A DNA stretch of 24,000 nucleotides from Candidatus Woesearchaeota archaeon. GTDB lineage: Archaea; Nanobdellota; Nanobdellia; Pacearchaeales; GW2011-AR1. Each line of letters opens with the position of its first letter. Within the stretch, counting starts at the first letter, position 1. The translations under genes were made by a program, and so were the position numbers. Positions 4,575 to 23,841 of this stretch are shown one piece after another. Location of the stretch: positions 10,655 through 34,654 of the forward strand of contig CAYGYN010000044.1 of NCBI GenBank assembly GCA_964354195.1. Direction: 5' to 3'. The notes under the pieces were generated by a model. The model was given only the letters and a program-made list of their open reading frames with translations, did no database searches and had not been told where the DNA came from.

Positions 4575-7500
4575 TTAGTTCTTCTTCACCGCCCTCGAGT
4601 AAATTGTCCAGACATTTCTCTGGTCTCTGTCAACAAGTTCTGCAATCTCGCTGAATTTCATTCCTCTTCCCTTAAGATAGACTATTACCGCTTCAAGCAC
4701 AGTGTACTTTCTGTCTCCAAGTATCGAAGAAGGTATGAATATCTCTGTCTTTCCAACATATATCTTCTCCTTTCTCTTCTCCTGTGCTTTGTGGCAGGCT
4801 GTCCAGATTGTCCTCTCATTCCTGTTCAATGCAAGTGCAATCTCATGATAGCTCATTCCAAGATTCTCCTTCATGTACTTGCAAAGAGTTTCGAGAGCTC
4901 CAATTTCTTTGGAGAATATTGTAACTGGAATATTCATTCTTTCTGATTCACTAATCTCTTGAGTTTCTCTCTCAGAAATATCTCTTATAGCTTCCTCAAG
5001 CACCCCAACTTTTTCCAACTCATTTCTCTTTCTCAAATCAGCTTTTATCTTCAGCAGGCCCTCAACCAGGTTCTTTCTGCGTTTCTTCTTCCTATTTCTC
5101 CCACCTGCAAGAGCAAATCCAACAATAAGTATCTTGATTGTCCACGAGCCTTCATTCGCTGTTGAGTATGCCTGCCCGATGAGCTCGCTTCCCGCTTTCC
5201 TTATGCAGAAATAAAGTTGTTCCTGTCCTGTGCTCCCGTCATTGACTGTAAAGTTCCCGCGGGGCAAAAATGCGTCTGTTATGCTTACATAAGCAGAGGG
5301 AGATAATGTTGTTGCTCCGCATTCAGCATTTCCTCCAGTCGCAATTCCAACAGAAAAGTTATTTGCAAACAATGCAAGAAGACTATTGCTCTCTCCATTC
5401 AGGTTCGTTGAGTTTATCTGTATATTTCCAAGAGAGATATTCTGGTTTCCAGTGTTATTCAGGACAATAGGATCATTTGTTGCCGTCTGGTTCACAGCTC
5501 CAGGTGTCAATGAACTAAACGCAAGAGCGCTTGGCGAAGCCACAAATCCAGTAAGCGCATTAACAGTAAAGTAAGTTGAGATGTTTGTAGCCGCAGAACT
5601 GCTCAAGTCCGACACAGAAGCAGTTACATTCCATGCTCCTGCTCCATCAAACCAATACATTTGCACATTACAACTGTAATTGACATAATTTCCAATAGTG
5701 TTAATCTTCGCACAACTCAGATTAGTTCTAAGAGCCTCTCCATCTCTTGTAAAATTAGCCATTGCAGAAGAATCATTCAAATCCGCAGCACCATCGGCAT
5801 CATAAGCTGTGAAATTAACATTAACAGTCGTTGACGCGGGTCCTTCATTCAAATCCACAGCAGGAATTGCGCTCACATAGGTTATCTGAGGAGCTTGATT
5901 AACTGCTCCGAGGTTCACTTTTATAGTCCAGTTATCATTCGCAAATGCAGAATAGCTCTCGTTGTCTCTCGCTTCGCAATTCCAGAGATAAGTTCCATTA
6001 GCAATTCCATTCAATGGGAAAGATGCGCTCATTGATGAATTCGAAGAAAGAGAATTAGTATACATATTCACAATTTCCTGCTCACTTAATGCCCTGTTGA
6101 ATATTGCAACTTCATCTATTGCTCCCGAGAAAGGTCTTCTGCTTGTGCTTGACGTAGAAATAGGCCATATTCTTCCGTTTCCAACAACAAGAGGCAATGT
6201 AGACTGCAATATTGGTCCGCTGAAAGGATTATTTACCGGGAAGTTGGCGCCTGCTCCGTCCTGACTCCCATTCACATAAATAGACACAGTTGTTCCATTA
6301 TATCTCCCGACAACAAAAATCCACTGTCCCTCAGGGAATGTGCCGTTATAATTTGATTCTACCGCGCTGCCTGAAGAATTCCACACCCTGAAGAAAACAG
6401 AAGGTCTTGAACGGTCCACTGCAAGATAATAGCTTGATGAAGAAGCTGAAACAGCAATCTTGTCAAGAATTCTTGCATTTGCGTTATATGTATTGTTAAA
6501 GTTGTTTGCACTCGGCTTTATCCAGGCAGTCACTGTTATTGAACTGCCCATATTGCTCAAAGCAGGATTATCATTTGCATAAAGCGCATTTGGACTGCCA
6601 AAAATATATGCATTTGTTCCCGGGAAAACCCCTGTCTGATTCATTACAGGGCAGAATGACGACGATTCGTTTGAATTGCAATAAACATGATTGCCCAAGC
6701 CGGAAGAATCTGCATAATACGTCAAGTTCTCCCCCAAAAGAGAGTCATTGTTCATATGCAGCCAGAATACCATTGACGAATCATATGAATACTCGCCAGC
6801 ATATGCTATTCTTGTAAGATTCCAAACCCCGCTTGTATTTGTATAAAGGCTTATGTTAGACATTCTATTGACAGTTGTTGCATTGCACTGGAAAGTTATG
6901 TTGCCTGTTGTGCTTGTAGTGCCATTTGGAGGCGAAAGAAGACTTGTCCATATTTGTAAAGGGATAATTGTAAGATTATTCGAGCTCAATGTGCTTCCAT
7001 CCTGATACCCATCATTTGGCGTGACTTGGCAGCTCCAAATATCCCACAAAAATAGCTCGCTGCTGACAATAGTGTTTGTTTTATTTCGGTAAATAGTTCC
7101 AATCTCCTGCGAGGAGAGAGTATAATTAAATATAAGCACGTCATCTATCTCTCCATTGAAGAAATTATTCCAAGGCTGATGCCAGCCTATTCTTGTTCCA
7201 TTTAATCCAGTCAGTGGTGAACCGTTATAACTTCCTATCGCGGCAATACCATTAGAAGCATCAATTCCATCAACATAAATCCTAAAATTAGAAGAAGTTA
7301 CTGCCTGTCCTGATGTTGAATTGAAAACTCCAACTATGAAATGCCAGTTTCCATCATTCACAGTTCTGTTGGCATTAAGCCCTATCCATATTGCATCGGA
7401 ATCCAAGCCTATTGCAGGCACACCTGCTGAAGAATTTGTGCAATAGCTTCCTGGCACACTATTACAAAGAGGACCAATAGCCAAAGTTAAGCTCTTTCCA

Positions 7501-10500
7501 AGCCCGCTTCCCCTGTCATTGATTATAACTCCCTGATTTGCAGATGTCTTGACCCAAGCCGCCAAAGTATATTGCGTGGTTGAATTCTGAACAAAAGGAG
7601 AGATTATTGAACTATTTACCCCGTTGAACTTGTAATCTCCCTTCCCATCATATCCTCCTGTTGAGTTCCAGACAGCCCTGGAAACAACACCATTGTTCCC
7701 AAGCGAATAATCTTTTGTCCAAGTTGAAGTGCTTCCGCCCTCAAACGGCATATTAAGAACAATTATTGATTGGTTATTTAAGTACCAATTATAAATATTC
7801 TTCACTGAATCATTCTCCAAATCAGAAGTGCTTTGATTATAACATGTTAGATTCTCATTTACAGTATTAGTCCCGTAAGTCGAGCTCAAAATCGGTGGAG
7901 TTTGTGTTGGAGGGAAGTTTGGCGCAAGAGCATTGTAAGTTACATTGAAATAAAAGACATCCCAATAAGCAGTGCCTGTTCCAAATGCAGAGCCCCTAAG
8001 CTCTGATTTCATCTGGCTTCTGTTTCCTGAAGCGCCAAAGAAGTTTGAGCATTGCCAGTTCTTCAGAGCAGTCACATTTCGGCAGATTACCCCTGGATTT
8101 GCTGTTATTCCAGGGCAGGTGGAGTTGATTACTGTAAAATTAGTCCCGTTTTGATTGTCAATTGAAATATTGCAGTCAGAAGTTGAAGAAGTTGAAGCCC
8201 ACCATTCAAAGCAGGCAAGCACTTGTGTTATGTTTGAGCAGTTTGTATTTGTTGAATTGAATTCCATTATCTTCACTCCCCCATAACCTCCATTGTTGTA
8301 TCTCTGTGTCTCATAGAACCCATCATTGCATGTCAGCAAGTCAGCCCCTGAACCGCACGCGCTCGGATAAACGCCATCACAGGCAGAGCCGAACGAACCC
8401 TTGGCAGCCCTTTCCTCGGCAACACAGCTGCTCGTTCCCTCTCTAAATCCAGGGTCAGTTGTATTCATGGTGAAATTATAAGTTCCATCTGCAAGCAATG
8501 CGGCATAGGGTGTCCAAATCTCGTCAACGCATGTGCTTGTCGTAAAATTCCAGTTTATGCACTTCTCAAGGATTCTGAAACCTTCTGTTTCCTCGGGCAG
8601 AGACGTGCCATCCGCAACGATAGTAAAGTCAGTGTTATTGATTCGGGGATATACGGAGAATGAGAAATTCTGGGATGCATTTGCCTGGGAAATATCTATA
8701 ATGCTAGTTATGTTTGAGCTTAAATTAAACCCAAGAATATCAATTGTGTTGATAGTGTGATTAACAGGAGCGACATATATGTCATATATGCCTGTTGCAA
8801 GATTGACAGTGTGATTTATCATTGTCTGATTATAAACAACACTTGAAGTTATGTTTGTTATCCTGAGTGTTGCATTTATCCCATTATTCAGAGGGTCATT
8901 GATGGTTATTGTAAAAGTTACATTTTGTATAGGCGCCTGAGTCCCATTTCCAATTGTCAGGTTGTTTGAATTCTTTGTAATTCCGTCATTCTTCCCGTCA
9001 TTCGGAGTTACAGAACATGTCCAGTTCTGCCCTATAGAAAGTTCCTGGCTGACAATTAAATCTGTTCTGCTACTATACAATGCTTGAATTTGCTGTGCTG
9101 ATAAAGTTTTATTATAAATTCTTATGTCATCAATGCTTCCTGTAAATTTTTGTCCTGTCTGGTACTTGTCTCCAATACCCAGCCCATTTGTGTCATCATA
9201 CGTTCCGATTGGTCCATTAAGTGTTGAATTGCCAACTTCCACCCCATTGATATACAATCTCGCTATTGAGCCGTCATAAGTTCCTGCTGCAAAATACCAT
9301 GTATTATCATTGATTGTTTCTGAATTAACACGAGCTGCATCACTAGCATTAGTTACCTTAAATCTGATTATGTTGGTTGTCCCATTAAATTCAAAACCAT
9401 AAACCCCATATGGAGATATATCATTATTTCCATACCATACTATCTTGGCATAAGAGTTTTGGGTGCCGTTTCTTTTAAACCACGCTGCAATAGTTAGATT
9501 ATAAGTTGGTTCTAGATTATCAGAGCTGCCAACAGTTATAAGGTTAGTAATGCCATCAAAACGATAAGCTCCCTTTCCATTATATCCTCCTGTTGAATTC
9601 CATACAGCTCCTGAAACATTTCCATTGTTGCTTAACCCTGAATAATCCTTTGTGTAAGTTGAATTGCTTCCTCCCTCAAAAGGCATGTTCAAAACTTCAT
9701 AAGCCCTGTTATTCAATTTCCAACTGAAAATGTTCTTCACAGAATCCCCGTCAGCGTCATAGGTTGATTTATTGTAGCAAGTCAGGTTCTCACTTGTCAA
9801 ATTAGTCCCAAAAGTTGAATTCAAAATTGGCGTGCTTTGAGTGGGCAGGGTATTTGCGCAGTTATAAGTATATTCTGTGATATTCCCGAAAACAAATTGA
9901 AGAGTGTGATTGCCTCCAGTCAGAACCTTGCTTGTTTCATATCCGCTCTGATTGTCGCAAGTATAATTGAAATAGTGCACGCTGTTAGTTTCGTTAAGCC
10001 ATGTGTAATTCATGGTAGTATTCCCGCACCTTAACTCAAGGAACTGCAAGTCCCCTGACTCATTAAGATACCATGTTGTTCCATTCGATGCAGTTATTGT
10101 AAGATTTGCCTGTCCTGTTGTGTTAAATCCAACTGTCCAGTTTCCATCCACATATGGATAGCTGTAAAGATTGAGTATTATGAGCTGAAGTTCATATGTC
10201 TGGTTTGAGAGATGTTCAACATTCCACTCAATGTAATCAATCAAGCCATTCTCATTCATGTCAGCTGTTGTGAAATTAACGCTCTCTTTTGTTTCATTAA
10301 CCAGATGATAAAGTCTTATCATATCTGGAGAGGCTTCATAAGGCAGTTCACTAAAAGCAGTTATATCTGTATAGTTTAATTCATCAGGGGCTGAGATAGT
10401 TATAATTTTTCCGCTGCTTGTCTCTTCTTCAAAAGCCTCAGGCGCAGGAGTTTCGTAAGAAATCTCATACTGAGTTGCGTTATCCTCAAGACTGACTTCA

Positions 10501-11930
10501 ACAGGCTGCAAAGATTCATTTTGCTCCTCAGAAATAACTCTTCCTGTGAATCCTCTGCCAAATATGCCTTTTATGAAATCCCATAATCTGCTTATAATTC
10601 CATTTCCTTCGTTATCAGAAACAGCTAATCCTGTCACAAAAGCTCTTGCCTGCTCAGGCTTCTCAGTTTGTTCATCAATCTTGTTGACAGAGACATTCTC
10701 AGCCAAAGGCGGAAGCTCGATTGTTATTTCAGCAGGATTTTCGAGTTCAACAACCTTCTTCCATTTGACAGGCTGTCCCACTCTTATTTTCCCGACCTTT
10801 GAAGTGGTTATTGAGACATTTGTCTCGTTTGTTGTAATGTTCTCGGCAAGAGTCACATTCTCGGAGATAGTTAAATCTTCAAGAGGAACAAAAGGAATCA
10901 AGCCATATTCCAATCCAGTTAGTTTTAATCTTGCATTGTCAAGCTCAATCCTCAGGTTATAGAACTCTTTTGTGAGGTTTAATCCAGCCAAGTCGCAGGT
11001 TTCTTCACATATGCTATTAAACTCTCTCAGAGTTATTTCCTGAGTTGTTTCTTCCACAGAGGTTTTATTTTCTTCTGTTATATTTTCAGAAACAGGAGGA
11101 GTCACCTGCTGGGAAATGCTCTCGTTTTGAGGTGTTCCTCCTCCTGTTTGCTCTGAAGATGAAGGTTCTGAGGGCGTAGTTTCTGTAGTTGTTTCTTCTT
11201 CTGTTGGAATCGTTGGTTCTTGTTCTGATGGGGTTCCAGTTGGAGTTTCTGTAGTTGTTTCACTAGGTGTCTCAGTTGGAGTTTCACTTGGACTTTCTTG
11301 GGAGGATTCAGTTGAATCGGAGGAGGACGAATCTGAAGAAGAATCGGAATCGCCGGATGAATCTGATGATGAATCTGAAGAATCAGAGCTTGAATCAGAA
11401 TCAGATGATGAATCAGAAGAACCAGAATCTCCTTCCAATGCAAAACCAGTTATTGTGGTTCTTCTTTTTGCAATATTTGTGCTGTCAACCACAAGCAAAT
11501 TATCAAGATAAATCTTTATCTCTCCGTCTCCTGCAATCAATCCAGACAACTTGACAAAATCAAGTGTCCCATTTTCCTTAAGCGTGAATTCATAGCTCCC
11601 CGAATTATTGAAAACAACATCTGGAGTTTCAAAATAAGTCTTTGCATTTTCCTTTACCACAAACAAATTGAAGCTGGGACTGAAAAAGAAAAAGCTTGCT
11701 ATAAGAATTAAAAAAACCCCTATAAAACCAAAGCGAATCATAGTCTTCTTGTGCTTCTCATATTCCTCAAGAATTATCTGCTGCTGCCAGAGCCTGTGCC
11801 TATTTTCTTCTATCTGCTGTTTATGATAATCAGCAAGCGCCTGGTCTGGGTCATTAATGTATTTCCTAGAATCTTCTATTCTTCTTGAAAGTTCTTCGAT
11901 TAAAACTCTCGCTACGCGAGCATTTCCCAT
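4575..11930 (-). CDS. Giant (2,451 aa) two-pass surface protein: N-terminal cytoplasmic helix, TM, LamG-rich glycoprotein ectodomain, TM, cytoplasmic tandem-HTH tail
   Basis: A single uninterrupted 7,356-nt ORF. TTTATAAG lies 30 nt upstream of the ATG. Domain evidence is listed in the sub-features below. Confidence 0.9.
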   Translation of the reverse strand: MGNARVARVLIEELSRRIEDSRKYINDPDQALADYHKQQIEENRHRLWQQQIILEEYEKHKKTMIRFGFIGVFLILIASFFFFSPSFNLFVVKENAKTYFETPDVVFNNSGSYEFTLKENGTLDFVKLSGLIAGDGEIKIYLDNLLVVDSTNIAKRRTTITGFALEGDSGSSDSSSDSDSSSDSSDSSSDSSGDSDSSSDSSSSDSTESSQESPSETPTETPSETTTETPTGTPSEQEPTIPTEEETTTETTPSEPSSSEQTGGGTPQNESISQQVTPPVSENITEENKTSVEETTQEITLREFNSICEETCDLAGLNLTKEFYNLRIELDNARLKLTGLEYGLIPFVPLEDLTISENVTLAENITTNETNVSITTSKVGKIRVGQPVKWKKVVELENPAEITIELPPLAENVSVNKIDEQTEKPEQARAFVTGLAVSDNEGNGIISRLWDFIKGIFGRGFTGRVISEEQNESLQPVEVSLEDNATQYEISYETPAPEAFEEETSSGKIITISAPDELNYTDITAFSELPYEASPDMIRLYHLVNETKESVNFTTADMNENGLIDYIEWNVEHLSNQTYELQLIILNLYSYPYVDGNWTVGFNTTGQANLTITASNGTTWYLNESGDLQFLELRCGNTTMNYTWLNETNSVHYFNYTCDNQSGYETSKVLTGGNHTLQFVFGNITEYTYNCANTLPTQSTPILNSTFGTNLTSENLTCYNKSTYDADGDSVKNIFSWKLNNRAYEVLNMPFEGGSNSTYTKDYSGLSNNGNVSGAVWNSTGGYNGKGAYRFDGITNLITVGSSDNLEPTYNLTIAAWFKRNGTQNSYAKIVWYGNNDISPYGVYGFEFNGTTNIIRFKVTNASDAARVNSETINDNTWYFAAGTYDGSIARLYINGVEVGNSTLNGPIGTYDDTNGLGIGDKYQTGQKFTGSIDDIRIYNKTLSAQQIQALYSSRTDLIVSQELSIGQNWTCSVTPNDGKNDGITKNSNNLTIGNGTQAPIQNVTFTITINDPLNNGINATLRITNITSSVVYNQTMINHTVNLATGIYDIYVAPVNHTINTIDILGFNLSSNITSIIDISQANASQNFSFSVYPRINNTDFTIVADGTSLPEETEGFRILEKCINWNFTTSTCVDEIWTPYAALLADGTYNFTMNTTDPGFREGTSSCVAEERAAKGSFGSACDGVYPSACGSGADLLTCNDGFYETQRYNNGGYGGVKIMEFNSTNTNCSNITQVLACFEWWASTSSTSDCNISIDNQNGTNFTVINSTCPGITANPGVICRNVTALKNWQCSNFFGASGNRSQMKSELRGSAFGTGTAYWDVFYFNVTYNALAPNFPPTQTPPILSSTYGTNTVNENLTCYNQSTSDLENDSVKNIYNWYLNNQSIIVLNMPFEGGSTSTWTKDYSLGNNGVVSRAVWNSTGGYDGKGDYKFNGVNSSIISPFVQNSTTQYTLAAWVKTSANQGVIINDRGSGLGKSLTLAIGPLCNSVPGSYCTNSSAGVPAIGLDSDAIWIGLNANRTVNDGNWHFIVGVFNSTSGQAVTSSNFRIYVDGIDASNGIAAIGSYNGSPLTGLNGTRIGWHQPWNNFFNGEIDDVLIFNYTLSSQEIGTIYRNKTNTIVSSELFLWDIWSCQVTPNDGYQDGSTLSSNNLTIIPLQIWTSLLSPPNGTTSTTGNITFQCNATTVNRMSNISLYTNTSGVWNLTRIAYAGEYSYDSSMVFWLHMNNDSLLGENLTYYADSSGLGNHVYCNSNESSSFCPVMNQTGVFPGTNAYIFGSPNALYANDNPALSNMGSSITVTAWIKPSANNFNNTYNANARILDKIAVSASSSSYYLAVDRSRPSVFFRVWNSSGSAVESNYNGTFPEGQWIFVVGRYNGTTVSIYVNGSQDGAGANFPVNNPFSGPILQSTLPLVVGNGRIWPISTSSTSRRPFSGAIDEVAIFNRALSEQEIVNMYTNSLSSNSSMSASFPLNGIANGTYLWNCEARDNESYSAFANDNWTIKVNLGAVNQAPQITYVSAIPAVDLNEGPASTTVNVNFTAYDADGAADLNDSSAMANFTRDGEALRTNLSCAKINTIGNYVNYSCNVQMYWFDGAGAWNVTASVSDLSSSAATNISTYFTVNALTGFVASPSALAFSSLTPGAVNQTATNDPIVLNNTGNQNISLGNIQINSTNLNGESNSLLALFANNFSVGIATGGNAECGATTLSPSAYVSITDAFLPRGNFTVNDGSTGQEQLYFCIRKAGSELIGQAYSTANEGSWTIKILIVGFALAGGRNRKKKRRKNLVEGLLKIKADLRKRNELEKVGVLEEAIRDISERETQEISESERMNIPVTIFSKEIGALETLCKYMKENLGMSYHEIALALNRNERTIWTACHKAQEKRKEKIYVGKTEIFIPSSILGDRKYTVLEAVIVYLKGRGMKFSEIAELVDRDQRNVWTIYSRAVKKN
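4578..5099 (-). other. Cytoplasmic C-terminal tail of the giant protein (res 2278-2451) with two tandem sigma-70 region 4 / LuxR-like HTH repeats
   Basis: The tail starts with the stop-transfer cluster RNRKKKRRK and a charged helix. Repeat A (nt 4767-4898): ALETLCKYMKENLGMSYHEIALALNRNERTIWTACHKAQEKRKE. Repeat B (nt 4578-4706): YTVLEAVIVYLKGRGMKFSEIAELVDRDQRNVWTIYSRAVKKN. Both fit the pattern (hydrophobic)x(Y/F)xEIAxxLxRxxRT/NVWTxxxxA. There are no N-X-S/T sequons in the tail. Confidence 0.6.
5100..5150 (-). other. Second transmembrane segment of the giant protein (GSWTIKILIVGFALAGG)
   Basis: Short hydrophobic stretch immediately followed by nine basic residues in ten (RNRKKKRRKN). Coordinates were checked codon by codon against the reverse complement. 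Confidence 0.6.
5139..5894 (-). repeat. Membrane-proximal 252-aa two-domain module of the giant protein (res 2013-2264), paralogous to 14263-15036
   Basis: APQITYVSAIPAVDLNEGPASTTVNVNF...PRGNFTVNDGSTGQEQLYFCIRKAGSELIGQAYS...WTIKI aligns end to end with residues 54-311 of the 311-aa protein, ~60% aa identity by eye. Identical nucleotide runs include GTTGTTGCTCCGCATTCA and ATTCTGGTTTCCAGTGTT. Confidence 0.85.
5907..6947 (-). other. LamG (concanavalin-A-like lectin, Laminin_G_3-type) module 3, nested in a split beta-sandwich
   Basis: Res 1662-2008. Flank SPPNGTTSTTGNITFQCNA...; core SSITVTAWIKP...GQWIFVVGRYNGTTVSIYVNG...FSGAIDEVAIFNRALSEQEIVNMY; closing strand GTYLWNCEARDNESYSAFANDNWTIKV. Confidence 0.7.
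6966..7913 (-). other. LamG module 2 nested in a split beta-sandwich
   Basis: Res 1340-1655. PPTQTPPILSSTYGTNTVNENLTCYNQSTSDLENDSVKNIYNWYL...LNMPFEGGS...YTLAAWVK...GNWHFIVGVF...FNGEIDDVLIFNYTLSSQEIGTIY...WSCQVTPNDGYQDGSTLSSNNLTI. Confidence 0.75.
8031..8573 (-). other. Cys-rich central domain of the giant protein (12 Cys in ~180 aa)
   Basis: Res ~1120-1300. Cys at 1124, 1134, 1169, 1184, 1192, 1201, 1231, 1240, 1253, 1272, 1283 and 1294 by my indexing. No family recognised. Confidence 0.5.
8961..9848 (-). other. LamG module 1 nested in a split beta-sandwich
   Basis: Res 695-990. LPTQSTPILNSTFGTNLTSENLTCYNKSTYDADGDSVKNIFSWKL...LNMPFEGGS...AYRFDG...LTIAAWFK...NTWYFAAGTYDGSIARLYINGVEVG...FTGSIDDIRIYNKTLSAQQIQALY...WTCSVTPNDGKNDGITKNSNNLTI. 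The first ~100 aa are ~65% identical to module 2 by eye. Confidence 0.8.
11145..11429 (-). repeat. Low-complexity acidic linker: Ser/Asp repeats (res 168-207) then Thr/Glu/Pro repeats (res 208-262)
   Basis: GDSGSSDSSSDSDSSSDSSDSSSDSSGDSDSSSDSSSSD followed by ESPSETPTETPSETTTETPTGTPSEQEPTIPTEEETTTETTPSEP. The DNA is an imperfect GAATC(N)GA(N) tri/hexanucleotide repeat. Alternative-frame ORFs here are artefacts. Confidence 0.85.
11673..11738 (-). other. First transmembrane segment of the giant protein (IRFGFIGVFLILIASFFFFSPS)
   Basis: Res 65-86. It is preceded by a 64-aa charged helical segment ending in KHKKTM (positive-inside rule), and no A-x-A cleavage site follows. Confidence 0.65.
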
Positions 11931-11991
11931 ACTTATCTTGTATGTAAATATACTTATAAATCTATTGGTAATACCTATTATTTATGTAATA
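11928..11991 (-). repeat. Promoter-plus-start-codon repeat copy R1 (functional promoter of the giant gene)
   Basis: CATACTTATCTTGTATGTAAATATACTTATAAATCTATTGGTAATACCTATTATTTATGTAATA. It contains the ATG (11930-11928) and the TATA (11953-11960). About 85% identical to R2, which lies 95 bp upstream. Confidence 0.8.
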
Positions 11992-12022
11992 ATATGAGAT
12001 AGGCTATTTGCCAATTAACATC

Positions 12023-12087
12023 CATACCTATCTTGTATGTAAAAGCCCTTTATAAATTTATTGATAATACCTATTATTTATGTAATA
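12023..12087 (-). repeat. Promoter-plus-start-codon repeat copy R2 (duplicated promoter driving a 15-codon micro-ORF)
   Basis: CATACCTATCTTGTATGTAAAAGCCCTTTATAAATTTATTGATAATACCTATTATTTATGTAATA. It has TTTATAAA at 12049-12056 and an ATG at 12025-12023. That ATG opens MDVNWQIAYLILLHK* (12025..11978). Confidence 0.8.
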
Positions 12088-12141
12088 GCCATGCAAAGAG
12101 TTATTTAACAGTTAGATAGCACAAAACACTAAAAATCGAAA

Positions 12142-13656
12142 TCACTGCTCAAATTTTTCAAGATATTCAGAAGCCTTGCCATCCACAACCATTACTTCCT
12201 TTATTGAATGCACATTGCTGTGCCTCACAAGCGCGTTCTTTTTGTTCAAGTTCTTCGCAATGTGCGGCTCAAGCGCAATCAGCCAGCCATATATCTTGTT
12301 ATCCTCAAGATAAACTTCACTCACATGCCCTAGTTTGTTCCCATTCATCCCATATACCCGCAAATTCATTGCATCTGTGAGCCCATTCAGTTTTCCCTTG
12401 TGCTTTCTCTTCGCTCCAGCCCCAATAACTCCTCTCTCAAGCAGAGGAATCAGATATCTCACCAGAACAATTGAAATAAGACTAGCAAGCAATGCAATCA
12501 CAAGCATTATCCAGAACAAGTCTATCCAGTTTATTGCAAATACAGTTGTTACAGGGGCAGGCTTTTCCTCCTGTACTTCATCAACATCGCACCTGCCATT
12601 CTGATTTGCATCAAGACAGCATTCTAATCCTCGGGGTATGTAAGGAGAACTGCAGCTTGCGCACGCAATGATTCCTGTCTCGCCTTCACTCTGATTAATG
12701 CATTCAATTATCTGAGGCTGGGAATAATTTGTCTGATAAACTACCCTGGTGCCTCCGCCTCCACCGCCGCCAACAGTCACTATCACAACAGGTTCAGGCG
12801 ATTCATCAGCAGAATAATTCGAAAATCCAGTTACTCTGAATCTTAAATTTCCGGATGAATAATCTTCTTTGGTGCAAATGCTATCTGGGCAAACAACGCC
12901 ATTCCTCAATATTCTTGGATTTGTGAAATTCAATCCATAAAGCCATAATGTTGAAGAAACATTGAAATTAGGCAGCTCGTCAGCATTTAATTCAATCCTA
13001 TTGAATAATATATTCACATTGTTCTCAACGTCAACCACTCCGTCAAAATTATGGTCCTTATCATCAGTCACATTCAAACAATCGTCAAACTCTATTTTTC
13101 CATAATTAACATCTTCAAGAATAGTGTTGCAGAAATTCTGCAAATCTTCAAATGTATATGTATAGAAATCTGTTGAGCCTCCGCTGAAAGATGTCTTGAA
13201 TTCCCCCAGGTAGATAATTCTCAACAGCGTTGTATTGACAACAAACTGCAATCCCTCGCTAGTCTGCCCCTGGCTGTTGTTTGCATAAACCCTGATAATA
13301 TGGGTTCCATCTCCAGCAGTGAAATGAAGAGAATGGGGTATATTTGGGATATAGGTGTCTGCTGAGCCATCAAGAACATACCACGCATCATAAGCGCTGT
13401 AAACACTATAATTCAAAAGCAAACTTTCATTTATGTAAGTTCCGTTCTTAGGGGAATAGATAATTACCCCTGGAAGGCTTACAACATAAACCCTCAAATC
13501 AACAGGCTGTTCTGTCGCCTCACCTGTAACCGAAACGCTGCCAGTTATGCCTGCGCGCGAGCCATTCTCAACAACCAATATTGCAGATGCATAAGAACTG
13601 GAAATAATTAAAAAAACAATTGCTAAAAACAGCGATAAAATCAAATACCTCTTCAT
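12142..13656 (-). CDS. Type-I surface glycoprotein with C-terminal TM helix and cytoplasmic PRC-barrel domain
   Basis: Start refined to the ATG at 13656 (MKRYLILSLFLAIVFLIISSSYASA signal). The ORF-track start is a TTG 4 codons upstream, and an ATTTAAAT box lies 30 nt upstream of the ATG. The ectodomain is sequon-rich with a Gly7 linker and a Cys cluster (CINQ...CASCSS...CCLDANQNGRCD). TM helix LFWIMLVIALLASLISIVLVRYLIPLL (12439-12519). The 98-aa tail LNGLTDAMNLRVYGMNGNKLGHVSEVYLEDNKIYGWLIALEP...VMVVDG (12181-12390) fits the PRC-barrel pattern. Confidence 0.85.
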   Translation of the reverse strand: MKRYLILSLFLAIVFLIISSSYASAILVVENGSRAGITGSVSVTGEATEQPVDLRVYVVSLPGVIIYSPKNGTYINESLLLNYSVYSAYDAWYVLDGSADTYIPNIPHSLHFTAGDGTHIIRVYANNSQGQTSEGLQFVVNTTLLRIIYLGEFKTSFSGGSTDFYTYTFEDLQNFCNTILEDVNYGKIEFDDCLNVTDDKDHNFDGVVDVENNVNILFNRIELNADELPNFNVSSTLWLYGLNFTNPRILRNGVVCPDSICTKEDYSSGNLRFRVTGFSNYSADESPEPVVIVTVGGGGGGGTRVVYQTNYSQPQIIECINQSEGETGIIACASCSSPYIPRGLECCLDANQNGRCDVDEVQEEKPAPVTTVFAINWIDLFWIMLVIALLASLISIVLVRYLIPLLERGVIGAGAKRKHKGKLNGLTDAMNLRVYGMNGNKLGHVSEVYLEDNKIYGWLIALEPHIAKNLNKKNALVRHSNVHSIKEVMVVDGKASEYLEKFEQ

Positions 13657-13679
13657 AAAAATATCCAAGCAACTATATT

Positions 13680-13700: not shown

Positions 13701-14258
13701 TTAATTTTGTTCCTGCTTCTTTCTCTTGTTCAATGCCACAACGATTATTGCCATGACAAGAATTGCAGCTCCGACAACAAGATATAATGTCCAGTTTGTC
13801 TTTTCAACAGGAATCACTGACTCTTCTTCATTGACCACAAAAACAGGCAGTCTTGTCGAGATGCTGCTGCCTATTCCTACAGCACCGCCAGTCAATCCGC
13901 TCTGCACTGTCTTGAAAGTAAACTCAACAGGATAATTTCCACCTATCTTGCTATCGCTCGGCACGCTGATTCTCACATTCATTGCAGCTTCTCCGCCCGC
14001 AGGCACATTATAAGCCTTGTTTTCATCAGTTATCGTCGTAACATCCGAGCCCTGAGAGACTTCAGCATCCAAAACAACAGGATCCACTCCCGCATTGTTC
14101 TTCAGCACAATCTGCAAATCAACTGTTTGTCCAGGTGCAATCCTCAATGGATTCTCAGACCAATAAGGCGTTGAGACTGCAAATGCATAAACTCCATTTA
14201 TCATTAAGATAGTCACAACTAACAATATTCCCGCTGCGATATAGTTTTTAGTTTTCAT
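13701..14258 (-). CDS. Small type-I surface protein: signal peptide, single Ig-like (CARDB/DUF11-like) domain, C-terminal TM anchor
   Basis: Signal peptide YIAAGILLVVTILMINGVYAFA. Beta-rich domain (PGQTVDLQIVLKNNAG...YNVPAGGEAAMNVRISVPSDSKIGGNYPVEFTF). Anchor WTLYLVVGAAILVMAIIVVAL followed by NKRKKQEQN. The ATG lies 1 nt after the upstream stop, indicating an operon. Confidence 0.8.
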   Translation of the reverse strand: MKTKNYIAAGILLVVTILMINGVYAFAVSTPYWSENPLRIAPGQTVDLQIVLKNNAGVDPVVLDAEVSQGSDVTTITDENKAYNVPAGGEAAMNVRISVPSDSKIGGNYPVEFTFKTVQSGLTGGAVGIGSSISTRLPVFVVNEEESVIPVEKTNWTLYLVVGAAILVMAIIVVALNKRKKQEQN

Positions 14259-14259
14259 T

Positions 14260-15195
14260 TTATGATATCTTCAACGTCCATGCTCTAGAGGCTGAGTCTG
14301 ATGAATATGCCTGTGCTGTAAGTTCAGAACCAACTTTCTTTATGCAGAAGTATACTTGCTCCTGCCCCGTTGAGCCGTCATTGACTGTGAAATTCCCTCT
14401 TGGTAAAGTCGCGCTGCCTATCGCAGTGTATACTGAAGGAGCCATGGTTGTTGCTCCGCATTCAACAGGAGGAGAACCCCCAGTAGTTACGCCAACACTG
14501 AAGTTATTGGAATAGATTTTTCTATTGGCATCTAACTCTCCAAGAAGGTCAGTGGTATTCAACTGAACATTTCCTGCTGTAATATTCTGGTTTCCAGTGT
14601 TGTTTAATACAATTGGATCATTTGTAGAAGTCTGATTCACGCTTCCAGGAGTTAACGATGCCCATGTCAGAGAAGCCGGCGAAGATACAAATCCAGTAAG
14701 CGCATTAATTGTGAATGTAGTAGAAACATTTGAAGCAGCAGAATTGCTTAAGTCCTTCACAAATACAGTCACATTCCAGGTTCCTGAGCCATCAAACCAG
14801 TACATAGGCACGCTGCAAGTGTAATTAACTGTAGTCGCAGTACTGCCCGCATTGGTGCATGAAACAGCCCTTACAACTTCTCCAGCCCTTGTAAAGTTAA
14901 CCATCGCAGAACTATCATTCAAATTCCCTGCCCCGTCAGCATCACTTGCCACGAAGCTCATAACTACTGTAGTGCTTGTAGGCCCTTCATTCAAATTCAC
15001 CGCGCTTATAGCAGAAACAGAAGCAATTGTTGGAGCAGTGTTTGATATTGTGACATTAACATTTACGCTTTGCTGTGTTACTTTCCCAGTTATCTTTCCA
15101 AACCAGTCAAACATCCCGGCAGACGCAAATGACGAGACTAATAATACAGAAGCTAGAACCACAACAAAAACAAGCGTTCCTCTTTTCGCATTCAT
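14260..15195 (-). CDS. Secreted two-domain protein, paralog of the giant protein's membrane-proximal module (no anchor)
   Basis: Signal peptide MNAKRGTLVFVVVLASVLLVSSFASAG. Residues 54-311 align with giant-protein residues 2013-2264. The protein ends (WTLKIS*) exactly where the giant protein enters its TM helix. TTTATAAA lies 29 nt upstream of the ATG. Confidence 0.85.
   Translation of the reverse strand: MNAKRGTLVFVVVLASVLLVSSFASAGMFDWFGKITGKVTQQSVNVNVTISNTAPTIASVSAISAVNLNEGPTSTTVVMSFVASDADGAGNLNDSSAMVNFTRAGEVVRAVSCTNAGSTATTVNYTCSVPMYWFDGSGTWNVTVFVKDLSNSAASNVSTTFTINALTGFVSSPASLTWASLTPGSVNQTSTNDPIVLNNTGNQNITAGNVQLNTTDLLGELDANRKIYSNNFSVGVTTGGSPPVECGATTMAPSVYTAIGSATLPRGNFTVNDGSTGQEQVYFCIKKVGSELTAQAYSSDSASRAWTLKIS
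14263..15036 (-). repeat. Paralogous copy of the 5139-5894 module
   Basis: See 5139-5894. Same orientation, ~9.1 kb away, with nucleotide similarity clearly visible by eye. Confidence 0.85.
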
Positions 15196-15216: not shown

Positions 15217-15224
15217 TTTATAAA
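15217..15224 (-). promoter_or_regulatory. TATA box (TTTATAAA) for the 15195 operon
   Basis: 29 nt upstream of the ATG at 15195. Confidence 0.5.
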
Positions 15225-15467
15225 CATTTCTCTGATACTATATAGGTTTTGATTTGCTCTCTTTTATTTGCTCTTTACTATTAATTCTGACTCGCTCTTG
15301 TCTTGAAGCTTCTCATCTGCGTTAAATACTATTAATTCGGATTCACCTTCACTGCGGGCTCCATTTAAAGGAAGATGACGTGTCAAGAAACCTTGGTTTT
15401 GAACCATCAGCAGATGCAATAGAAGGAGGGGTGACATATCAGGGGAACTATGAGTTCCCTTATATAA

Positions 15468-15539
15468 TGGCTCTACGAGGAATTGAACCTCGATTATCCG
15501 GTCCGAAGCCGAAGGGTCTATCCATTAACCTATAGAGCC
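15468..15539 (-). tRNA. tRNA-Arg (anticodon TCG)
   Basis: The reverse complement folds as a 72-nt cloverleaf. Acceptor GGCTCTA/TAGAGCC plus discriminator A. D stem GGTT/GACC. Anticodon stem TTCGG/CCGGA with loop CT-TCG-GA. T arm CGAGG-TTCAATT-CCTCG. No encoded CCA and no intron. Confidence 0.9.
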
Positions 15540-15582
15540 AAAACTATTAAATAACTGGCTTTTTTAATACTATTTATAAGAG

Positions 15583-18397: not shown

Positions 18398-19249
18398 TCA
18401 CAAGAAATTTATGCAAGTCGCACTGCAGTTCATATACCCGCCGGTGTCTCCTCCGCCATTATAATAGGCATAAACTTTCCATGCACCACTATCTTGATAA
18501 ACTTTGCATTGCCAAATATCGTGCTTGCGGTCTGTGACATCATCATATAATTTAAAGGACTCTTGAGTTATTGCGCAGAAATCCCAATCTCCAGTGCAGT
18601 TAGTTATTGTTGCGCATCCTGAAGCGCAACCATTTGTGGCATTAGCCGAAAATGTTGCTCTAACCGGCGCTGTCCCTCCCCCTCCTCCAGATAATGCACA
18701 ACATTGCACAGCAGATATGTAAAATCCTCCGCAACCGTTTATAGAATATCTATATTTAACCCCAGTTACAACCTTTCCGCTCGGGCAGCTGCTCCATGTT
18801 AGGCTGCTTACTGCTGCATCGCATCCATTGACAGCAACTTCTTGGCAATCAGAAGTAGTTATTGGCCCGCCAGTTCCATCAGCAGGCCACGCATTCCTGC
18901 AATCGCTGCCAATGCAGACTCCTGCTGCTTTCATGAAATTAGTTGTGCTCACATTTCCAATGTTATAATTAATATCGCTCCCACTCTGACTCCATAAACT
19001 TCCTCCGCCTCCAGGAGGCCATGCTGTCCTGCAATCCATTGTTCCTGAGTTGTTCATGCAGAATCCCGCAGCAATAATATTGGTAGGCACTCTGACGCTC
19101 CAGTTCATCTCATCAACCGAATGCCCAAACACAGCAGGATTTGCAGGAACAGAATTATAAGCATAAACCCCCACAAATCCAATCAGAAATAATCCGATTA
19201 TCAATAAAGAAATAAAGTACTTCCTCTCCAAATTAACCTCTATTTTCAC
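18398..19249 (-). CDS. Signal-anchored Cys-rich secreted protein, MKIEVNL-leader family member P1 (GTG start)
   Basis: The leader (V)KIEVNLERKYFISLLIIGLFLIGFVGVYAYNSVPANPAVFGHSVDEMNWS is homologous to P2 and P3. Two C-x(3-8)-C-R-x-AWP motifs, Gly4-5 linkers and 17 Cys. An extra C-terminal Cys-rich domain follows AVQCCAL. Confidence 0.8.
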   Translation of the reverse strand: MKIEVNLERKYFISLLIIGLFLIGFVGVYAYNSVPANPAVFGHSVDEMNWSVRVPTNIIAAGFCMNNSGTMDCRTAWPPGGGGSLWSQSGSDINYNIGNVSTTNFMKAAGVCIGSDCRNAWPADGTGGPITTSDCQEVAVNGCDAAVSSLTWSSCPSGKVVTGVKYRYSINGCGGFYISAVQCCALSGGGGGTAPVRATFSANATNGCASGCATITNCTGDWDFCAITQESFKLYDDVTDRKHDIWQCKVYQDSGAWKVYAYYNGGGDTGGYMNCSATCINFL

Positions 19250-23810: not shown

Positions 23811-23841
23811 ATCCAAGAAAGACAAGTCTATTATTTAAACT

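What the first reader, a model, noticed from the sequence alone, without database searches (positions are those of the whole stretch)
14263..15036. Secreted stand-alone copy of the giant protein's membrane-proximal 252-aa module; ~750-bp direct repeats bracket the cluster
Residues 54-311 of the 311-aa protein align without large gaps to residues 2013-2264 of the giant protein (nt 5139-5894), ~60% identity by eye. Shared blocks include LNEGP.STTV, DADGA..LNDSSAM.NFTR, MYWFDG.G.WNVT, NALTGFV.SP, DPIVLNNTGNQNI, NNFSVG..TGG, ECGATT, LPRGNFTVNDGSTGQEQ.YFCI.K.GSEL..QAYS and WT.KI. The small protein has its own signal peptide and stops exactly where the giant protein enters the membrane. Possible readings, all inference: (a) a soluble subunit that docks on or polymerises with the stalk base; (b) a decoy or competitor for whatever binds the juxtamembrane module; (c) a gene-conversion donor. 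The two copies are direct repeats in the same orientation. Homologous recombination between them would delete ~9 kb and create a 'mini' protein of signal peptide + module + TM + HTH tail. This is testable as a structural variant.
Basis: partly seen in the sequence, partly recalled or inferred. Interest (0 to 1): 0.7.

Follow-up and report, generated by a model that had tools for sequence, protein, structure and literature searches.

The report
Free copy of giant protein's base
A small secreted protein of a DPANN archaeon is a true paralogue of the last outside-the-cell module of a neighbouring giant, DNA-binding-tailed surface protein; the pair is conserved across many related archaea and kept alike by repeated gene conversion, which suggests (not proven) that both plug into one cell-surface assembly.

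Summary
Residues 43-310 of the 311-aa protein align to residues 2002-2267 of the 2451-aa protein at 62% identity (E 1e-107). Both lie on the minus strand, and the small protein ends where the giant continues into a hydrophobic and polybasic stretch.

The small gene is intact. It has its own TATA box, signal peptide and conserved leader. It heads a conserved cassette (g1, g2, g3 plus giant g4) found in more than 20 Pacearchaeota, Woesearchaeota and Nanoarchaeia genomes.

The module forms two beta-sandwiches (AF2 pLDDT 91.5) and has no Pfam or PDB sequence match. It belongs to a family of at least 2078 clusters, either free or placed just before a 2xHTH tail in giants.

A tree of 43 modules groups free and embedded copies by genome, not by type, which indicates recurrent module-limited gene conversion.

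In this genome the copies are old: 64.7% nt identity, saturated dS, dN/dS 0.19, longest identical run 22 nt. The proposed 9-kb deletion is therefore unlikely, and no natural mini-protein was found.

Function is inferred. The best guess is a shared docking or base module. A neutral paralogue or a regulatory decoy remain possible.

The parts
14260..15195 (-). g1: 311-aa secreted protein, made of signal peptide, conserved leader and two-beta-sandwich module.
   Evidence: ORF and translation. An identical protein is in public data as P0001. 67 stand-alone homologues of about 300-350 aa were found. The AF2 model has pLDDT 91.5.
15118..15195 (-). g1 signal peptide (residues 1-26: MNAKRGTLVFVVVLASVLLVSSFASA|G).
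   Evidence: Read directly from the sequence. AF2 places a helix at residues 4-24. The AxA cleavage site is inferred.
15070..15117 (-). g1 leader (residues 27-42, GMFDWFGKITGKVTQQ). It carries the conserved FDW...ITGxAT motif, which the giant's module lacks.
   Evidence: Consensus of 53 sequences, with T36 and G37 at least 90% conserved. The [ILVF]TGx[AVSI] motif is enriched after N-terminal hydrophobic segments, 37/141 ORFs against 16/414. AF2 confidence is low here.
14266..15069 (-). Free copy of the module (g1 residues 43-310).
   Evidence: BLASTP 62% identity, E 1e-107. Two beta-sandwich domains at about residues 55-165 and 166-310. Cysteine pairs C113/C127 and C246/C284 are invariant or nearly so. 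Six to eight N-x-S/T sequons are conserved in both free and embedded copies.
5130..5927 (-). Embedded copy of the module (giant residues 2002-2267). It is the last extracellular unit of the giant.
   Evidence: BLASTP alignment. AF2 of the giant's C-terminal part shows the same strand pattern, pLDDT 88.8. No alignment column distinguishes free from embedded copies.
5073..5132 (-). Short hydrophobic stretch ILIVGFALAGG (residues 2267-2277) followed by the polybasic run RNRKKKRRK (residues 2278-2286). This is the presumed stop-transfer or membrane crossing.
   Evidence: Read directly from the sequence. The stretch is 8-14 hydrophobic residues in 56 homologues. AF2 gives no helix and pLDDT below 50.
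4578..5072 (-). Cytoplasmic tail of the giant: a helical linker followed by two HTH units.
   Evidence: Sigma70_r4_2 scores 25.9 bits against a cut-off of 25.7. AF2 shows helices at 288-329 and two HTH-like units. The tail has 0 sequons and 22% K+R. In L021 and L029 the tail is a separate soluble protein.
4575..11930 (-). g4: the 2451-aa giant. It has an N-terminal cytoplasmic segment, a TM at about residues 64-86, a Ser/Thr/Asp-rich linker, three Laminin_G_3 domains, then module, crossing and HTH tail.
   Evidence: The ectodomain has 116 sequons, or 5.3 per 100 aa.
13701..14258 (-). g2: a 185-aa protein with signal peptide, a small beta-rich domain and a normal-length C-terminal TM anchor. 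Its start codon lies 1 nt after the g1 stop codon.
   Evidence: NPCBM_assoc scores 19.9 bits, below its cut-off. g2 always follows g1 in the related loci.
12142..13668 (-). g3: a 508-aa protein with signal peptide, a conserved N-terminal region of about 290 aa, a Gly-rich linker, a TM and a cytoplasmic PRC barrel.
   Evidence: Orthologues follow g2 in the related loci. There is a sub-threshold resemblance to the Nup98 S59 autopeptidase.
15217..15224 (-). TATA-like box TTTATAAA, with 21 nt between the box and the g1 ATG, implying a leaderless transcript.
   Evidence: Read directly from the sequence. The same box is present in the L004 and L002 orthologues.
11954..12087 (-). Promoter of the giant gene (TTTATAA, with 23 nt between the box and the ATG). 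Promoter, conserved upstream element and first codon are duplicated in tandem with a 96-nt period.
   Evidence: Repeat D9, 38 nt, 95% identical. Sequence shown.

Best explanation
SHOWN. The 311-aa ORF (g1) is a real, conserved gene for a signal-peptide-bearing two-beta-sandwich protein rich in conserved N-glycosylation sequons. Its body is paralogous to the last extracellular module of the neighbouring giant LamG protein (g4). In g4 the module is followed by a short hydrophobic and polybasic stretch and a tail with two HTH units. g1 heads a conserved cassette with g2 (a small membrane-anchored protein) and g3 (a larger membrane protein). This cassette sits next to g4 in Pacearchaeota, Woesearchaeota and Nanoarchaeia genomes. 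Within each lineage the free and embedded modules have been repeatedly homogenised over exactly the module, which is concerted evolution by gene conversion. No residue consistently distinguishes the two kinds. In this window's lineage the last homogenisation predates the split from its nearest sampled relative, and both copies have since evolved separately under purifying selection.

INFERRED. The module is a shared membrane-proximal base or docking unit. Free g1 is made in step with anchored g2 and acts with g3 to build or join a surface assembly. The giant adhesin or sensor joins the same assembly through its own copy. Conversion, or selection that tolerates it, keeps the two copies compatible. 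The giant as a whole is read as a membrane-tethered transcription regulator with an adhesin-like ectodomain.
For: Paralogy: 62% identity over 269 aa, E 1e-107.

The gene is real and conserved:
- 67 stand-alone homologues.
- 2078 cluster representatives at E<=1e-3. Of the top 150, 93 are stand-alone size and 31 are giants of at least 1000 aa, and 29 of those 31 carry the HTH signature.
- g1 has its own TATA box and a start codon for a leaderless transcript.

Cassette linkage: g1-g2-g3 lies next to a module-bearing giant in about 20 loci, in either order. The g1 stop and g2 start are separated by 1 nt or overlap by 1 nt in the window, L002, L003/L004, L007 and L031, 4 nt apart in L032 and 25 nt apart in L005.

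Concerted evolution:
- Same-genome free+embedded pairs have 100% bootstrap in 8 genomes, and an all-free versus all-embedded split has 0%.
- Within-genome identity is 55-86%, against 40-74% (mostly 48-65%) to the best orthologue.
- The L016 pair is 90% identical at nucleotide level over 758 nt that coincide with the module.
- In L007 the copy next to the giant is 59% identical to it, while the distal copy is 31%.
- No type-discriminating column exists.

Selection: dN/dS is 0.14-0.23.

Extracellular location: sequon density is 3.9 per 100 aa in g1 and 5.3 in the giant's ectodomain, against 0-0.8 in cytosolic proteins and 0 in the tail. Six to eight sequons are conserved in both copy types, and the cysteine pairs are conserved.

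Cytoplasmic HTH tail: it is a separate soluble ORF in L021 and L029, and it scores a Sigma70_r4_2 match at threshold.

g1 does not depend on the giant's module: L005 keeps g1-g2-g3 although its giant lacks the module.
Against: No physical interaction was tested; no multimer prediction was possible and there are no experiments. Homogenisation of adjacent paralogues can be neutral. Across loci, identity does not correlate with the distance between copies (Spearman -0.18, p 0.47), so the idea that conversion stalled here because of the rearrangement rests on L007 and on the window/L004 site patterns only. Foldseek gives only generic tandem-Ig matches with TM-scores of 0.2-0.3. g2 and g3 show no homology to the module, so they offer no clue to a shared interface. 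The supposed membrane crossing is 8-14 residues long and is not modelled as a helix. This leaves the giant's topology, and so the 'membrane-proximal' label, partly inferred.
Confidence: 0.45

Rival explanations
1. Neutral paralogy. g1 is an independent small surface glycoprotein, for example an envelope or S-layer-like component or a minor adhesin. It shares an all-purpose 'leg' module with the giant. The two copies are homogenised only because they are usually adjacent direct repeats, with no physical or regulatory link between them.
For: In 14 of 17 genomes with a pair, the copies are 0.2-1.1 kb apart and in the same orientation, which favours conversion. The fold is a generic tandem beta-sandwich. 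L005 keeps g1 without a module-bearing giant. g1 is far more often free than embedded, 93 against 31 in the top 150.
Against: Both copies and their linkage are kept in small DPANN genomes across lineages that have diverged to about 40% identity. No type-specific residue has emerged despite long coexistence. The module in giants always sits at the same place, just before the crossing and the HTH tail.
Confidence: 0.3
2. Regulatory decoy or competitor. The giant is a contact-sensing, membrane-tethered transcription factor. Free g1 competes with, or caps, its juxtamembrane module for a partner such as g2, g3 or a protease. This would set the threshold for release or activation of the HTH tail.
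For: The giant combines an adhesin-like ectodomain with HTH units. The crossing segment is short and rich in Pro/Gly, which is compatible with intramembrane cleavage; that link rests on general knowledge and was not tested. The tail can exist as a free cytoplasmic protein. g1 is identical to the giant's module at all conserved positions.
Against: No protease is linked to the cassette in this window. g1 persists where the giant has no module or HTH tail (L005). There is no evidence of cleavage.
Confidence: 0.12
3. Donor-strand fibre. g1 polymerises through its conserved N-terminal leader, as chaperone-usher pilins or archaeal thread and bundling-pilus subunits do. The giant's module would serve as the membrane-anchored base subunit.
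For: A conserved leader of about 30 aa is unstructured in the monomer model. The top Foldseek hit is a donor-strand-complemented CfaB-CfaB fusion, E 2.8e-4.
Against: Both sandwiches are modelled as complete, with pLDDT above 95 and no missing strand. The TM-score to CfaB is only 0.32. The giant's module is preceded by other domains rather than a free groove.
Confidence: 0.05
4. Recombination substrate. The two direct repeats serve programmed or frequent deletion or phase variation. This would yield a mini-protein made of signal peptide, module, crossing and HTH tail.
For: The geometry is right: recombination between same-orientation copies 9.1 kb apart would fuse the g1 5' end to the giant's 3' end.
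Against: Nucleotide identity is 64.7%, synonymous sites are saturated (dS 1.65) and the longest identical run is 22 nt. No post-split exchange is detectable. Among the 117 hits and the 150 listed representatives, no complete mini-protein with a signal peptide was recognised. Of the six short candidates read, the two followed up were a gene cut by a contig end (P0075) and a split gene (P0047), and the other four were not traced. In most genomes the order is giant then g1, where the same event would instead remove the tail.
Confidence: 0.02

Closest known systems
SPEARE-type giant surface proteins of Nanohaloarchaeota, and LamG-rich DPANN surface proteins generally (PMC6642349; PMC5498576)
   Same: Both are very long, mostly extracytoplasmic proteins with laminin-G and other adhesion domains. 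Both have a membrane crossing near the C-terminus and a cytoplasmic C-terminal region that acts on DNA. Both are thought to mediate host contact (PMC6642349, read; LamG hits here).
   Different: The cytoplasmic part here is two Sigma70_r4-like HTH units, not a type III restriction enzyme. No serine-protease domain is found. Here the juxtamembrane module also exists as a separate secreted paralogue inside a conserved g1-g2-g3 cassette; the passages of that paper that were read (a term search) mention no such free paralogue.
Transmembrane transcription regulators (TTRs: ToxR, CadC, TcpP and relatives; PMC10269533)
   Same: One polypeptide combines a DNA-binding domain with a transmembrane region and an extracytoplasmic sensing part. 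TTRs are reported in archaea. From general knowledge, some bacterial TTRs have small co-encoded partners (ToxS, TcpH) that act on their outer domain.
   Different: The HTH units here are C-terminal and of the sigma-70 region 4 type. The ectodomain is about 2200 aa and adhesin-like. There are two crossings, and the second is only 8-14 residues long. The partner is a paralogue of the regulator's own juxtamembrane module.
Concerted evolution of surface-protein paralogues by intragenomic gene conversion (for example Helicobacter babA/babB, Neisseria opa and pilE/pilS; from general knowledge)
   Same: Segmental exchange occurs between nearby paralogous surface-protein genes, so that copies cluster by genome rather than by locus.
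   Different: Here the effect is homogenising and both copies are under purifying selection (dN/dS 0.19). It is not diversifying antigenic variation. The 'donor' is a complete, promoter-bearing gene, and one partner is a domain inside a giant protein.
Shared envelope-docking modules, such as bacterial SLH domains or the SlaA/SlaB canopy-plus-anchor arrangement of archaeal S-layers (from general knowledge)
   Same: The principle that different envelope proteins carry the same module in order to join one surface structure, together with a small membrane-anchored partner protein.
   Different: No sequence or fold membership was found. Lattice formation by g1 is pure conjecture.
Membrane-proximal tandem beta-sandwich 'legs', such as integrin alpha calf-1/calf-2, and the two-FnIII scaffold RbmA (Foldseek matches)
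   Same: Two consecutive beta-sandwich domains next to the membrane or matrix.
   Different: The match is at fold level only, with TM-scores of 0.15-0.3, about 10% identity and no functional implication.

Membership tests
Tandem immunoglobulin-like beta-sandwich fold | Two all-beta sandwich domains. | tested here: met
   AF2 models have pLDDT 91.5 (g1) and 88.8 (giant C-terminus), with 7 and 9 strands in the two domains. Foldseek hits are all tandem Ig/FnIII proteins.
CARDB / NPCBM_assoc (NEW3) Pfam domains | Sequence match above the Pfam gathering score. | tested here: not met
   g1 matches 0 Pfam and 0 NCBIfam families. The neighbouring g2 scores 19.9 bits against a cut-off of 24.4 for NPCBM_assoc. 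The resemblance of the 'NNTGN' strand to CARDB-type motifs is from memory only.
Transmembrane transcription regulators (PMC10269533) | A predicted DNA-binding domain. | tested here: met
   Sigma70_r4_2 scores 25.9 bits against a cut-off of 25.7. PF08281 is precomputed in many homologues. AF2 shows two HTH-like helical units.
Transmembrane transcription regulators (PMC10269533) | At least one predicted transmembrane region that places the DNA-binding domain in the cytoplasm. | tested here: inconclusive
   The N-terminal hydrophobic segment of about 23 aa is clear. The stretch before the tail is only 8-14 aa and is not helical in AF2. The sequon distribution and the free soluble tails in L021/L029 argue that the tail is cytoplasmic.
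Transmembrane transcription regulators (PMC10269533) | Binds DNA and regulates transcription. | not testable with these tools
   A conserved element, TTACATAAATAATAGGTATTA, lies upstream of the giant's TATA box. It is a candidate operator and nothing more.
SPEARE proteins (PMC6642349) | Laminin-G plus other adhesion domains in a long extracytoplasmic part. | tested here: met
   Three Laminin_G_3 stretches, E 1.7e-65.
SPEARE proteins (PMC6642349) | Serine protease domain and a cytoplasmic type III restriction endonuclease domain. | tested here: not met
   No such Pfam match; the cytoplasmic part is HTH.
Silent gene-conversion donor cassettes (pilS/vls type) | The donor lacks a promoter or start codon or is partial, and the exchanged segment is under diversifying selection. 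| tested here: not met
   g1 has a TATA box, an ATG and a signal peptide. It is full-length in 93 of the top 150 family members. dN/dS is 0.19.
Donor-strand-complemented fibre subunits (chaperone-usher pilins, archaeal threads and bundling pili) | An incomplete sandwich that lacks a strand, plus an N-terminal donor extension. | tested here: inconclusive
   The sandwiches are modelled as complete at high confidence. A conserved unstructured leader exists. The CfaB fusion is the top Foldseek hit, but with a TM-score of 0.32. No multimer model was possible.
S-layer protein with separate membrane anchor | Forms a two-dimensional lattice and is the most abundant envelope protein. | not testable with these tools
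   Only indirect hints are available: conserved sequons, tight g1-g2 coupling and the g1-g2 tandem duplication in L022.
Peptidase S59, Nup98-type autopeptidase (concerns g3, not g1) | Pfam PF04096 above its gathering score, and an HF|S autocleavage motif at the end of the domain. | tested here: inconclusive
   10 of 18 g3 orthologues hit PF04096, but only at E<=0.1 (best E 8.1e-5). The one score shown, 22.6 bits for the L008 g3, is below the cut-off of 28.4. The top PDB profile hit is Nup116, E 0.045. The motif V[TA][GH]F[ST]xY is nearly invariant, with HF in 3 of 18 and GF in 11 of 18.

The most novel reading that the evidence does not exclude
The cassette encodes a previously undescribed contact-sensing organ of Pacearchaeota- and Woesearchaeota-type DPANN archaea. 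In this reading the giant is a mechanically loaded, membrane-tethered transcription factor. Its LamG head binds a host surface, and its base module sits in a collar or lattice of free g1 subunits held by g2 and g3. Recurrent gene conversion is what keeps the base compatible with the collar. Pulling on the giant, or loss of g1 contacts, exposes the unusually short Pro/Gly-rich crossing segment, and the 2xHTH tail is freed or activated to switch gene expression. g3, with its Nup98-like GF/HF-S-x-Y site, would be a self-cleaving, sheddable part of the same device.
Probability: 0.15. Interest if true: 0.8.

Novelty: new variant of a known kind. Interest (0 to 1): 0.55.

Why it matters
DPANN archaea live attached to other cells, and how they sense and hold their hosts is largely unknown. 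This locus defines a large family with no Pfam, NCBIfam or PDB sequence match, comprising at least 2078 clusters at 50% identity. It also defines a conserved four-gene surface cassette. In that cassette a giant adhesin-like protein with a DNA-binding tail shares its base module with a free secreted protein, and the two are kept alike by gene conversion.

Three concrete handles follow:
- Candidate partners for co-folding or pull-downs.
- A candidate operator upstream of the giant gene.
- A candidate cleavage site in g3.

These could be used to ask whether surface contact is wired directly to transcription in these organisms. The locus is also a clear prokaryotic example of concerted evolution between a whole protein and a domain of another protein.

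Tried and rejected
- **Sequence annotation of the module.** Pfam, NCBIfam and PDB sequence searches gave nothing.
- **Homology of g2 or g3 to the module.** hhalign gave probabilities of at most 4%, so this was rejected.
- **PDB sequence search with the HTH tail.** Only E>0.2 noise was returned.
- **Recent conversion in the window lineage.** The four-taxon site patterns give the 'by genome' pattern (17) about equal to the noise pattern (18), against 64 'by type'. There is a weak local excess at aligned nt 271-360, which I regard as inconclusive.
- **Distance dependence of homogenisation across loci.** This was not significant.
- **Natural mini-proteins.** P0075 is cut by a contig end, and P0047 is the 3' part of a split giant gene.
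- **First genome scan.** The scan with the 53-sequence alignment failed for lack of a conserved block. It succeeded with 13 sequences.
- **Literature searches.** I found no description of this cassette, the module or the pairing.
- **Last protein search, on the g3 N-terminal region.** It found only 7 relatives and no supporting annotation.
- **First tree script.** It timed out and was redone.
Full report
**1.

The window carries a 311-aa ORF (g1) at 14260-15195 and a 2451-aa ORF (g4) at 4575-11930, both on the minus strand.
- BLASTP aligns g1 residues 43-310 with giant residues 2002-2267 at 62% identity and 79% similarity, with four gap positions and E 1e-107.
- The repeat finder recovers the same pairing as direct repeats 9139-9145 nt apart, 72-78% identical in the best ungapped blocks.
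- A codon alignment of the whole module gives 64.7% nucleotide identity and a longest identical run of 22 nt.
- g1 ends at ...AWTLKIS. The giant continues ...SWTIKILIVGFALAGGRNRKKKRRK and then runs through a 165-residue tail.

**2. Anatomy of the two proteins**

g1 has three parts.
- It starts with a typical Sec-type signal: K4/R5, a hydrophobic run and ASA|G. This is my reading of the sequence, supported by the AF2 helix at residues 4-24.
- A conserved leader follows (consensus SAG.FDW...ITG.ATS). It is unstructured in the model.
- The rest forms two beta-sandwich domains at about residues 55-165 and 166-310 (mean pLDDT 91.5).

The giant's C-terminal 451 residues fold into the same two sandwiches (pLDDT 88.8). 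A segment with no predicted structure follows, then a long helix and two HTH-like units.

Two cysteine pairs are invariant or nearly so. Six to eight N-x-S/T sequons are conserved at the same positions in free and embedded copies.

Sequon density separates the compartments:

| Protein or region | Sequons per 100 aa |
|---|---|
| g1 | 3.9 |
| Giant ectodomain | 5.3 |
| Giant N-terminal 63 residues | 0 |
| Giant tail | 0 |
| Housekeeping proteins of the window | 0-0.8 |

So the module lies outside the cell and the tail inside.

Pfam finds three Laminin_G_3 domains in the giant and a Sigma70_r4_2 match at threshold. The module itself matches nothing in Pfam, NCBIfam or PDB sequences. Foldseek returns only generic tandem Ig-like proteins with TM-scores of 0.15-0.3, such as a CfaB-CfaB fusion, RbmA and integrin alpha legs.

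**3. Surroundings**

The window comes from a DPANN-type archaeon.
- It encodes GatD, GatE, deoxyhypusine synthase and TrmB.
- Homologues are labelled Pacearchaeota, Woesearchaeota or Nanoarchaeia.

g1 has its own TATA box, with 21 nt between the box and the ATG. g2 (185 aa; signal peptide, small beta domain, normal 19-residue C-terminal TM) starts one nucleotide after the g1 stop. g3 follows (508 aa; signal peptide, conserved N-terminal region, TM, cytoplasmic PRC barrel). Then comes a 210-nt spacer that holds the giant's own TATA promoter.

This set is conserved elsewhere.
- g1-g2-g3 lies next to a module-bearing giant in about 20 further loci.
- In most loci the order is giant-g1-g2-g3, with the two module copies only 0.2-1.1 kb apart.
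- The window and its close relatives L002-L004 have the order g1-g2-g3-giant.
- L007 has that order and also a second g1 directly after the giant.
- g1 and g2 are tightly spaced in many lineages (1 nt apart or overlapping by 1 nt).

There are three variants.
- In L005 the giant lacks the module and ends in a PRC barrel, but g1-g2-g3 remain.
- In L021 and L029 the HTH tail is a separate soluble protein. It is encoded just upstream of the giant with an overlapping ATGA, and the giant ends at the module, as g1 does.
- In L022 the g1-g2 pair is duplicated in tandem.

**4. Size of the family**

A profile search of 1.84 billion cluster representatives finds 2078 proteins at E<=1e-3 and 781 at E<=1e-30.
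- Of the best 150, 93 are g1-sized (360 aa or less) and 31 are giants of 1000-5919 aa.
- In the listed giants that were inspected the module lies roughly 170-400 residues before the C-terminus.
- 29 of the 31 giants carry the tail's RDxRN[IV]W signature one to four times.

The literature searches found no description of this module, the cassette or the pairing.

**5. Concerted evolution**

- In 17 genomes with both copies, the free and embedded modules of one genome are 55-86% identical. Each is typically only 40-65% identical to its best counterpart in another genome.
- A bootstrapped neighbour-joining tree of 43 modules gives 0% support for a split into free and embedded clades. It gives 100% support for exclusive same-genome pairs in L011, L016, L019, L021, L023, L025 and L027, and for the giant of L007 with its adjacent g1.
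- The L016 pair is 90% identical at nucleotide level over 758 nt that coincide with the module. Other pairs are 70-80% identical.
- The g1 leader, the g2-g3 synteny and the giant's flanks are not part of the exchanged tract. Module-limited gene conversion therefore fits better than repeated whole-gene duplication.
- No alignment column distinguishes free from embedded copies.
- In L007 the distal g1 is 31% identical to the giant's module and the adjacent one 59%. This hints that proximity matters. Across all loci, however, identity does not correlate with distance.

**6. This genome in particular**

The window and L004 each have a 63% pair. Their free copies are 72% identical to each other and their embedded copies 74%. 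Each type forms a 99.5% clade, and the four sequences together form an 88.5% clade.

Four-taxon site patterns are 64 'by type', 17 'by genome' and 18 'other'. The last homogenisation therefore predates the split of these two organisms, and nothing detectable has happened since.

Synonymous sites between the two window copies are saturated (dS 1.65), and dN/dS is 0.19. Both copies are kept by purifying selection.

- The geometry is right, but the DNA is too diverged.
- Of the six short database proteins whose sequences were read, the two I followed up, P0075 and P0047, were a gene cut at a contig end and a split gene.

**7. The tail and an unexplained crossing**

The stretch between the module and the polybasic run is only 8-14 hydrophobic residues in 56 homologues, and it often contains Pro or Gly. 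AF2 gives it no helix. By contrast, the TM segments of g2, g3 and the giant's N-terminus are of normal length. Sequon statistics and the free tails of L021 and L029 nevertheless place the HTH units in the cytoplasm. How so short a stretch crosses the membrane is open.

**8. What it most likely is and does**

Shown:
- g1 is a conserved, separately expressed, secreted paralogue of the giant's last outer module.
- The linkage of g1-g2-g3 with the giant is conserved.
- Conversion is recurrent and limited to the module.
- Both copies are under purifying selection.

Inferred (about 0.45 for the whole statement; the evolutionary part alone about 0.85):
- The module is a shared base or docking unit.
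- g1, produced in step with anchored g2 and together with g3, forms or joins a membrane-proximal assembly. The giant joins it through its own copy.
- The giant is a membrane-tethered HTH regulator with an adhesin-like head. It is closest in architecture to SPEARE proteins (PMC6642349) and closest in concept to transmembrane transcription regulators (PMC10269533).

Rivals:

| Rival | Confidence |
|---|---|
| Neutral homogenisation of adjacent paralogues with no interaction | 0.3 |
| Decoy or competitor that tunes signalling through the tail | 0.12 |
| Donor-strand fibre with the giant's module as base | 0.05 |
| Recombination substrate for deletion | 0.02 |

None of the first three can be excluded without multimer modelling or experiments.

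**9. Novelty and score**

Giant LamG surface proteins, membrane-bound regulators and gene conversion between surface paralogues are all known. The following appear to be undescribed:
- this module family;
- the g1-g2-g3-giant cassette;
- the pairing of a free protein with a domain of a giant HTH-tailed protein, kept alike by conversion.

I rate it a new variant of a known kind, with interest 0.55. It is a solid and widespread pattern with testable consequences for DPANN host sensing, but its function is still inferential.

**10. Side observations**

These are listed separately:
- a Nup98-like autopeptidase resemblance in g3, with a nearly invariant GF/HF-S/T-x-Y motif;
- a shared ITGxA leader motif in g1, g3 and g4;
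- a tandemly duplicated giant promoter;
- a second paralogous family of small membrane proteins in the window.

Noticed in passing
window 12142-13668 (-), g3 residues about 140-291; orthologues in L002-L032 (alignment A4): The conserved N-terminal region of g3 resembles the Nup98/Nup116 autopeptidase (peptidase S59). 10 of 18 orthologues hit PF04096 at E<=0.1 (best E 8.1e-5; the one score shown is below the cut-off), and the top PDB profile hit is Nup116 (E 0.045). At the expected end of the domain sits a nearly invariant motif, L.F.V[TA][GH]F[ST].Y[SY].[ED]E.P (window: LRFRVTGFSNYSADESP). It recalls the HF|SKY self-cleavage site; 3 of 18 orthologues have HF. An S59-like self-cleaving domain in an archaeal surface protein would be unusual.
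   Followed up: partly
window g1 residues 34-39 (about 15079-15096), g3 residues 37-41, giant residues 156-162; same positions in related loci: The motif [ILVF]TGx[AVSI] follows the N-terminal hydrophobic segment in g1, g3 and the giant across lineages (ITGKVT, ITGSVS, ITGFAL). It is often repeated in g3 (ITGETITGEAT). It occurs in 37 of 141 ORFs that have an N-terminal hydrophobic segment, against 16 of 414 others. The giant's TGFA/TGFS versions resemble the g3 GF-S site. It may be a shared processing or docking tag.
   Followed up: partly
window 5100-5132 (giant residues 2267-2277) and 56 homologues: The presumed membrane crossing before the HTH tail is only 8-14 hydrophobic residues, often containing Pro or Gly, and is followed by a polybasic run. 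AF2 does not model it as a helix. Other TM segments in the same cassette are 19-23 residues long.
   Followed up: partly
window 11954-11991 and 12050-12087 (spacer 11931-12141): The giant gene's promoter is duplicated in tandem with a 96-nt period and 95% identity over 38 nt. The duplicated unit holds the TATA box, a conserved upstream element TTACATAAATAATAGGTATTA and the first ATG. The distal copy opens a 15-codon ORF. The upstream element is conserved in L004 and L002 and could be an operator, possibly for the giant's own HTH tail.
   Followed up: partly
window 18398-19249, 19299-20048, 23073-23825 (all -): Three paralogous proteins of 283, 249 and 250 aa share a near-identical N-terminus (MKIEVNLNKKFLVFS..GFVGVYAY; DNA 73-82% identical over 92-152 nt). 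Two of them carry GIGT..P..KL.V.G repeats, and all have Cys-rich C-terminal parts. None has a Pfam match. They are interleaved with housekeeping genes.
   Followed up: partly
L021 5999-9945 and L029 1793-6048: In two Woesearchaeota genomes the HTH 'tail' is a separate soluble protein of 169-200 aa. It is encoded immediately upstream of the giant with an overlapping ATGA, and the giant ends right at the module (…SWTIGII*). This is a natural split version of the fusion seen in the window.
   Followed up: partly
L022 11422-14686; L007 17712-19173: L022 carries two identical tandem copies of g1-g2, which is either a real recent duplication or an assembly artefact. L007 has a second g1-like gene, followed by a 191-aa ORF, directly downstream of the giant in addition to the upstream g1-g2 set.
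   Followed up: no
window 15467-15540 (-); L003 9758-9850: tRNA-Arg(TCG) lies about 270 nt upstream of g1. The orthologous position in L003 holds a 93-nt gene with the same acceptor and T arms but about 20 extra nucleotides in the anticodon region. ARAGORN calls it tRNA-Ser(GGA); it may carry an intron. Relative to L004, the window also has an insertion of about 120 nt between the tRNA and g1, containing a repeated GAATTAATAGTA.
   Followed up: no
window 7633-7697 and 9565-9629 (giant residues about 696-960 and 1338-1600): The giant contains an internal duplication of a LamG-containing unit. The shared protein pattern is PTQ.TPIL.ST.GTN..ENLTCYN.ST.D...DSVKNI..W.LNN......LNMPFEGGS.ST.TKDYS, and the DNA is 83% identical over 65 nt.
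   Followed up: no
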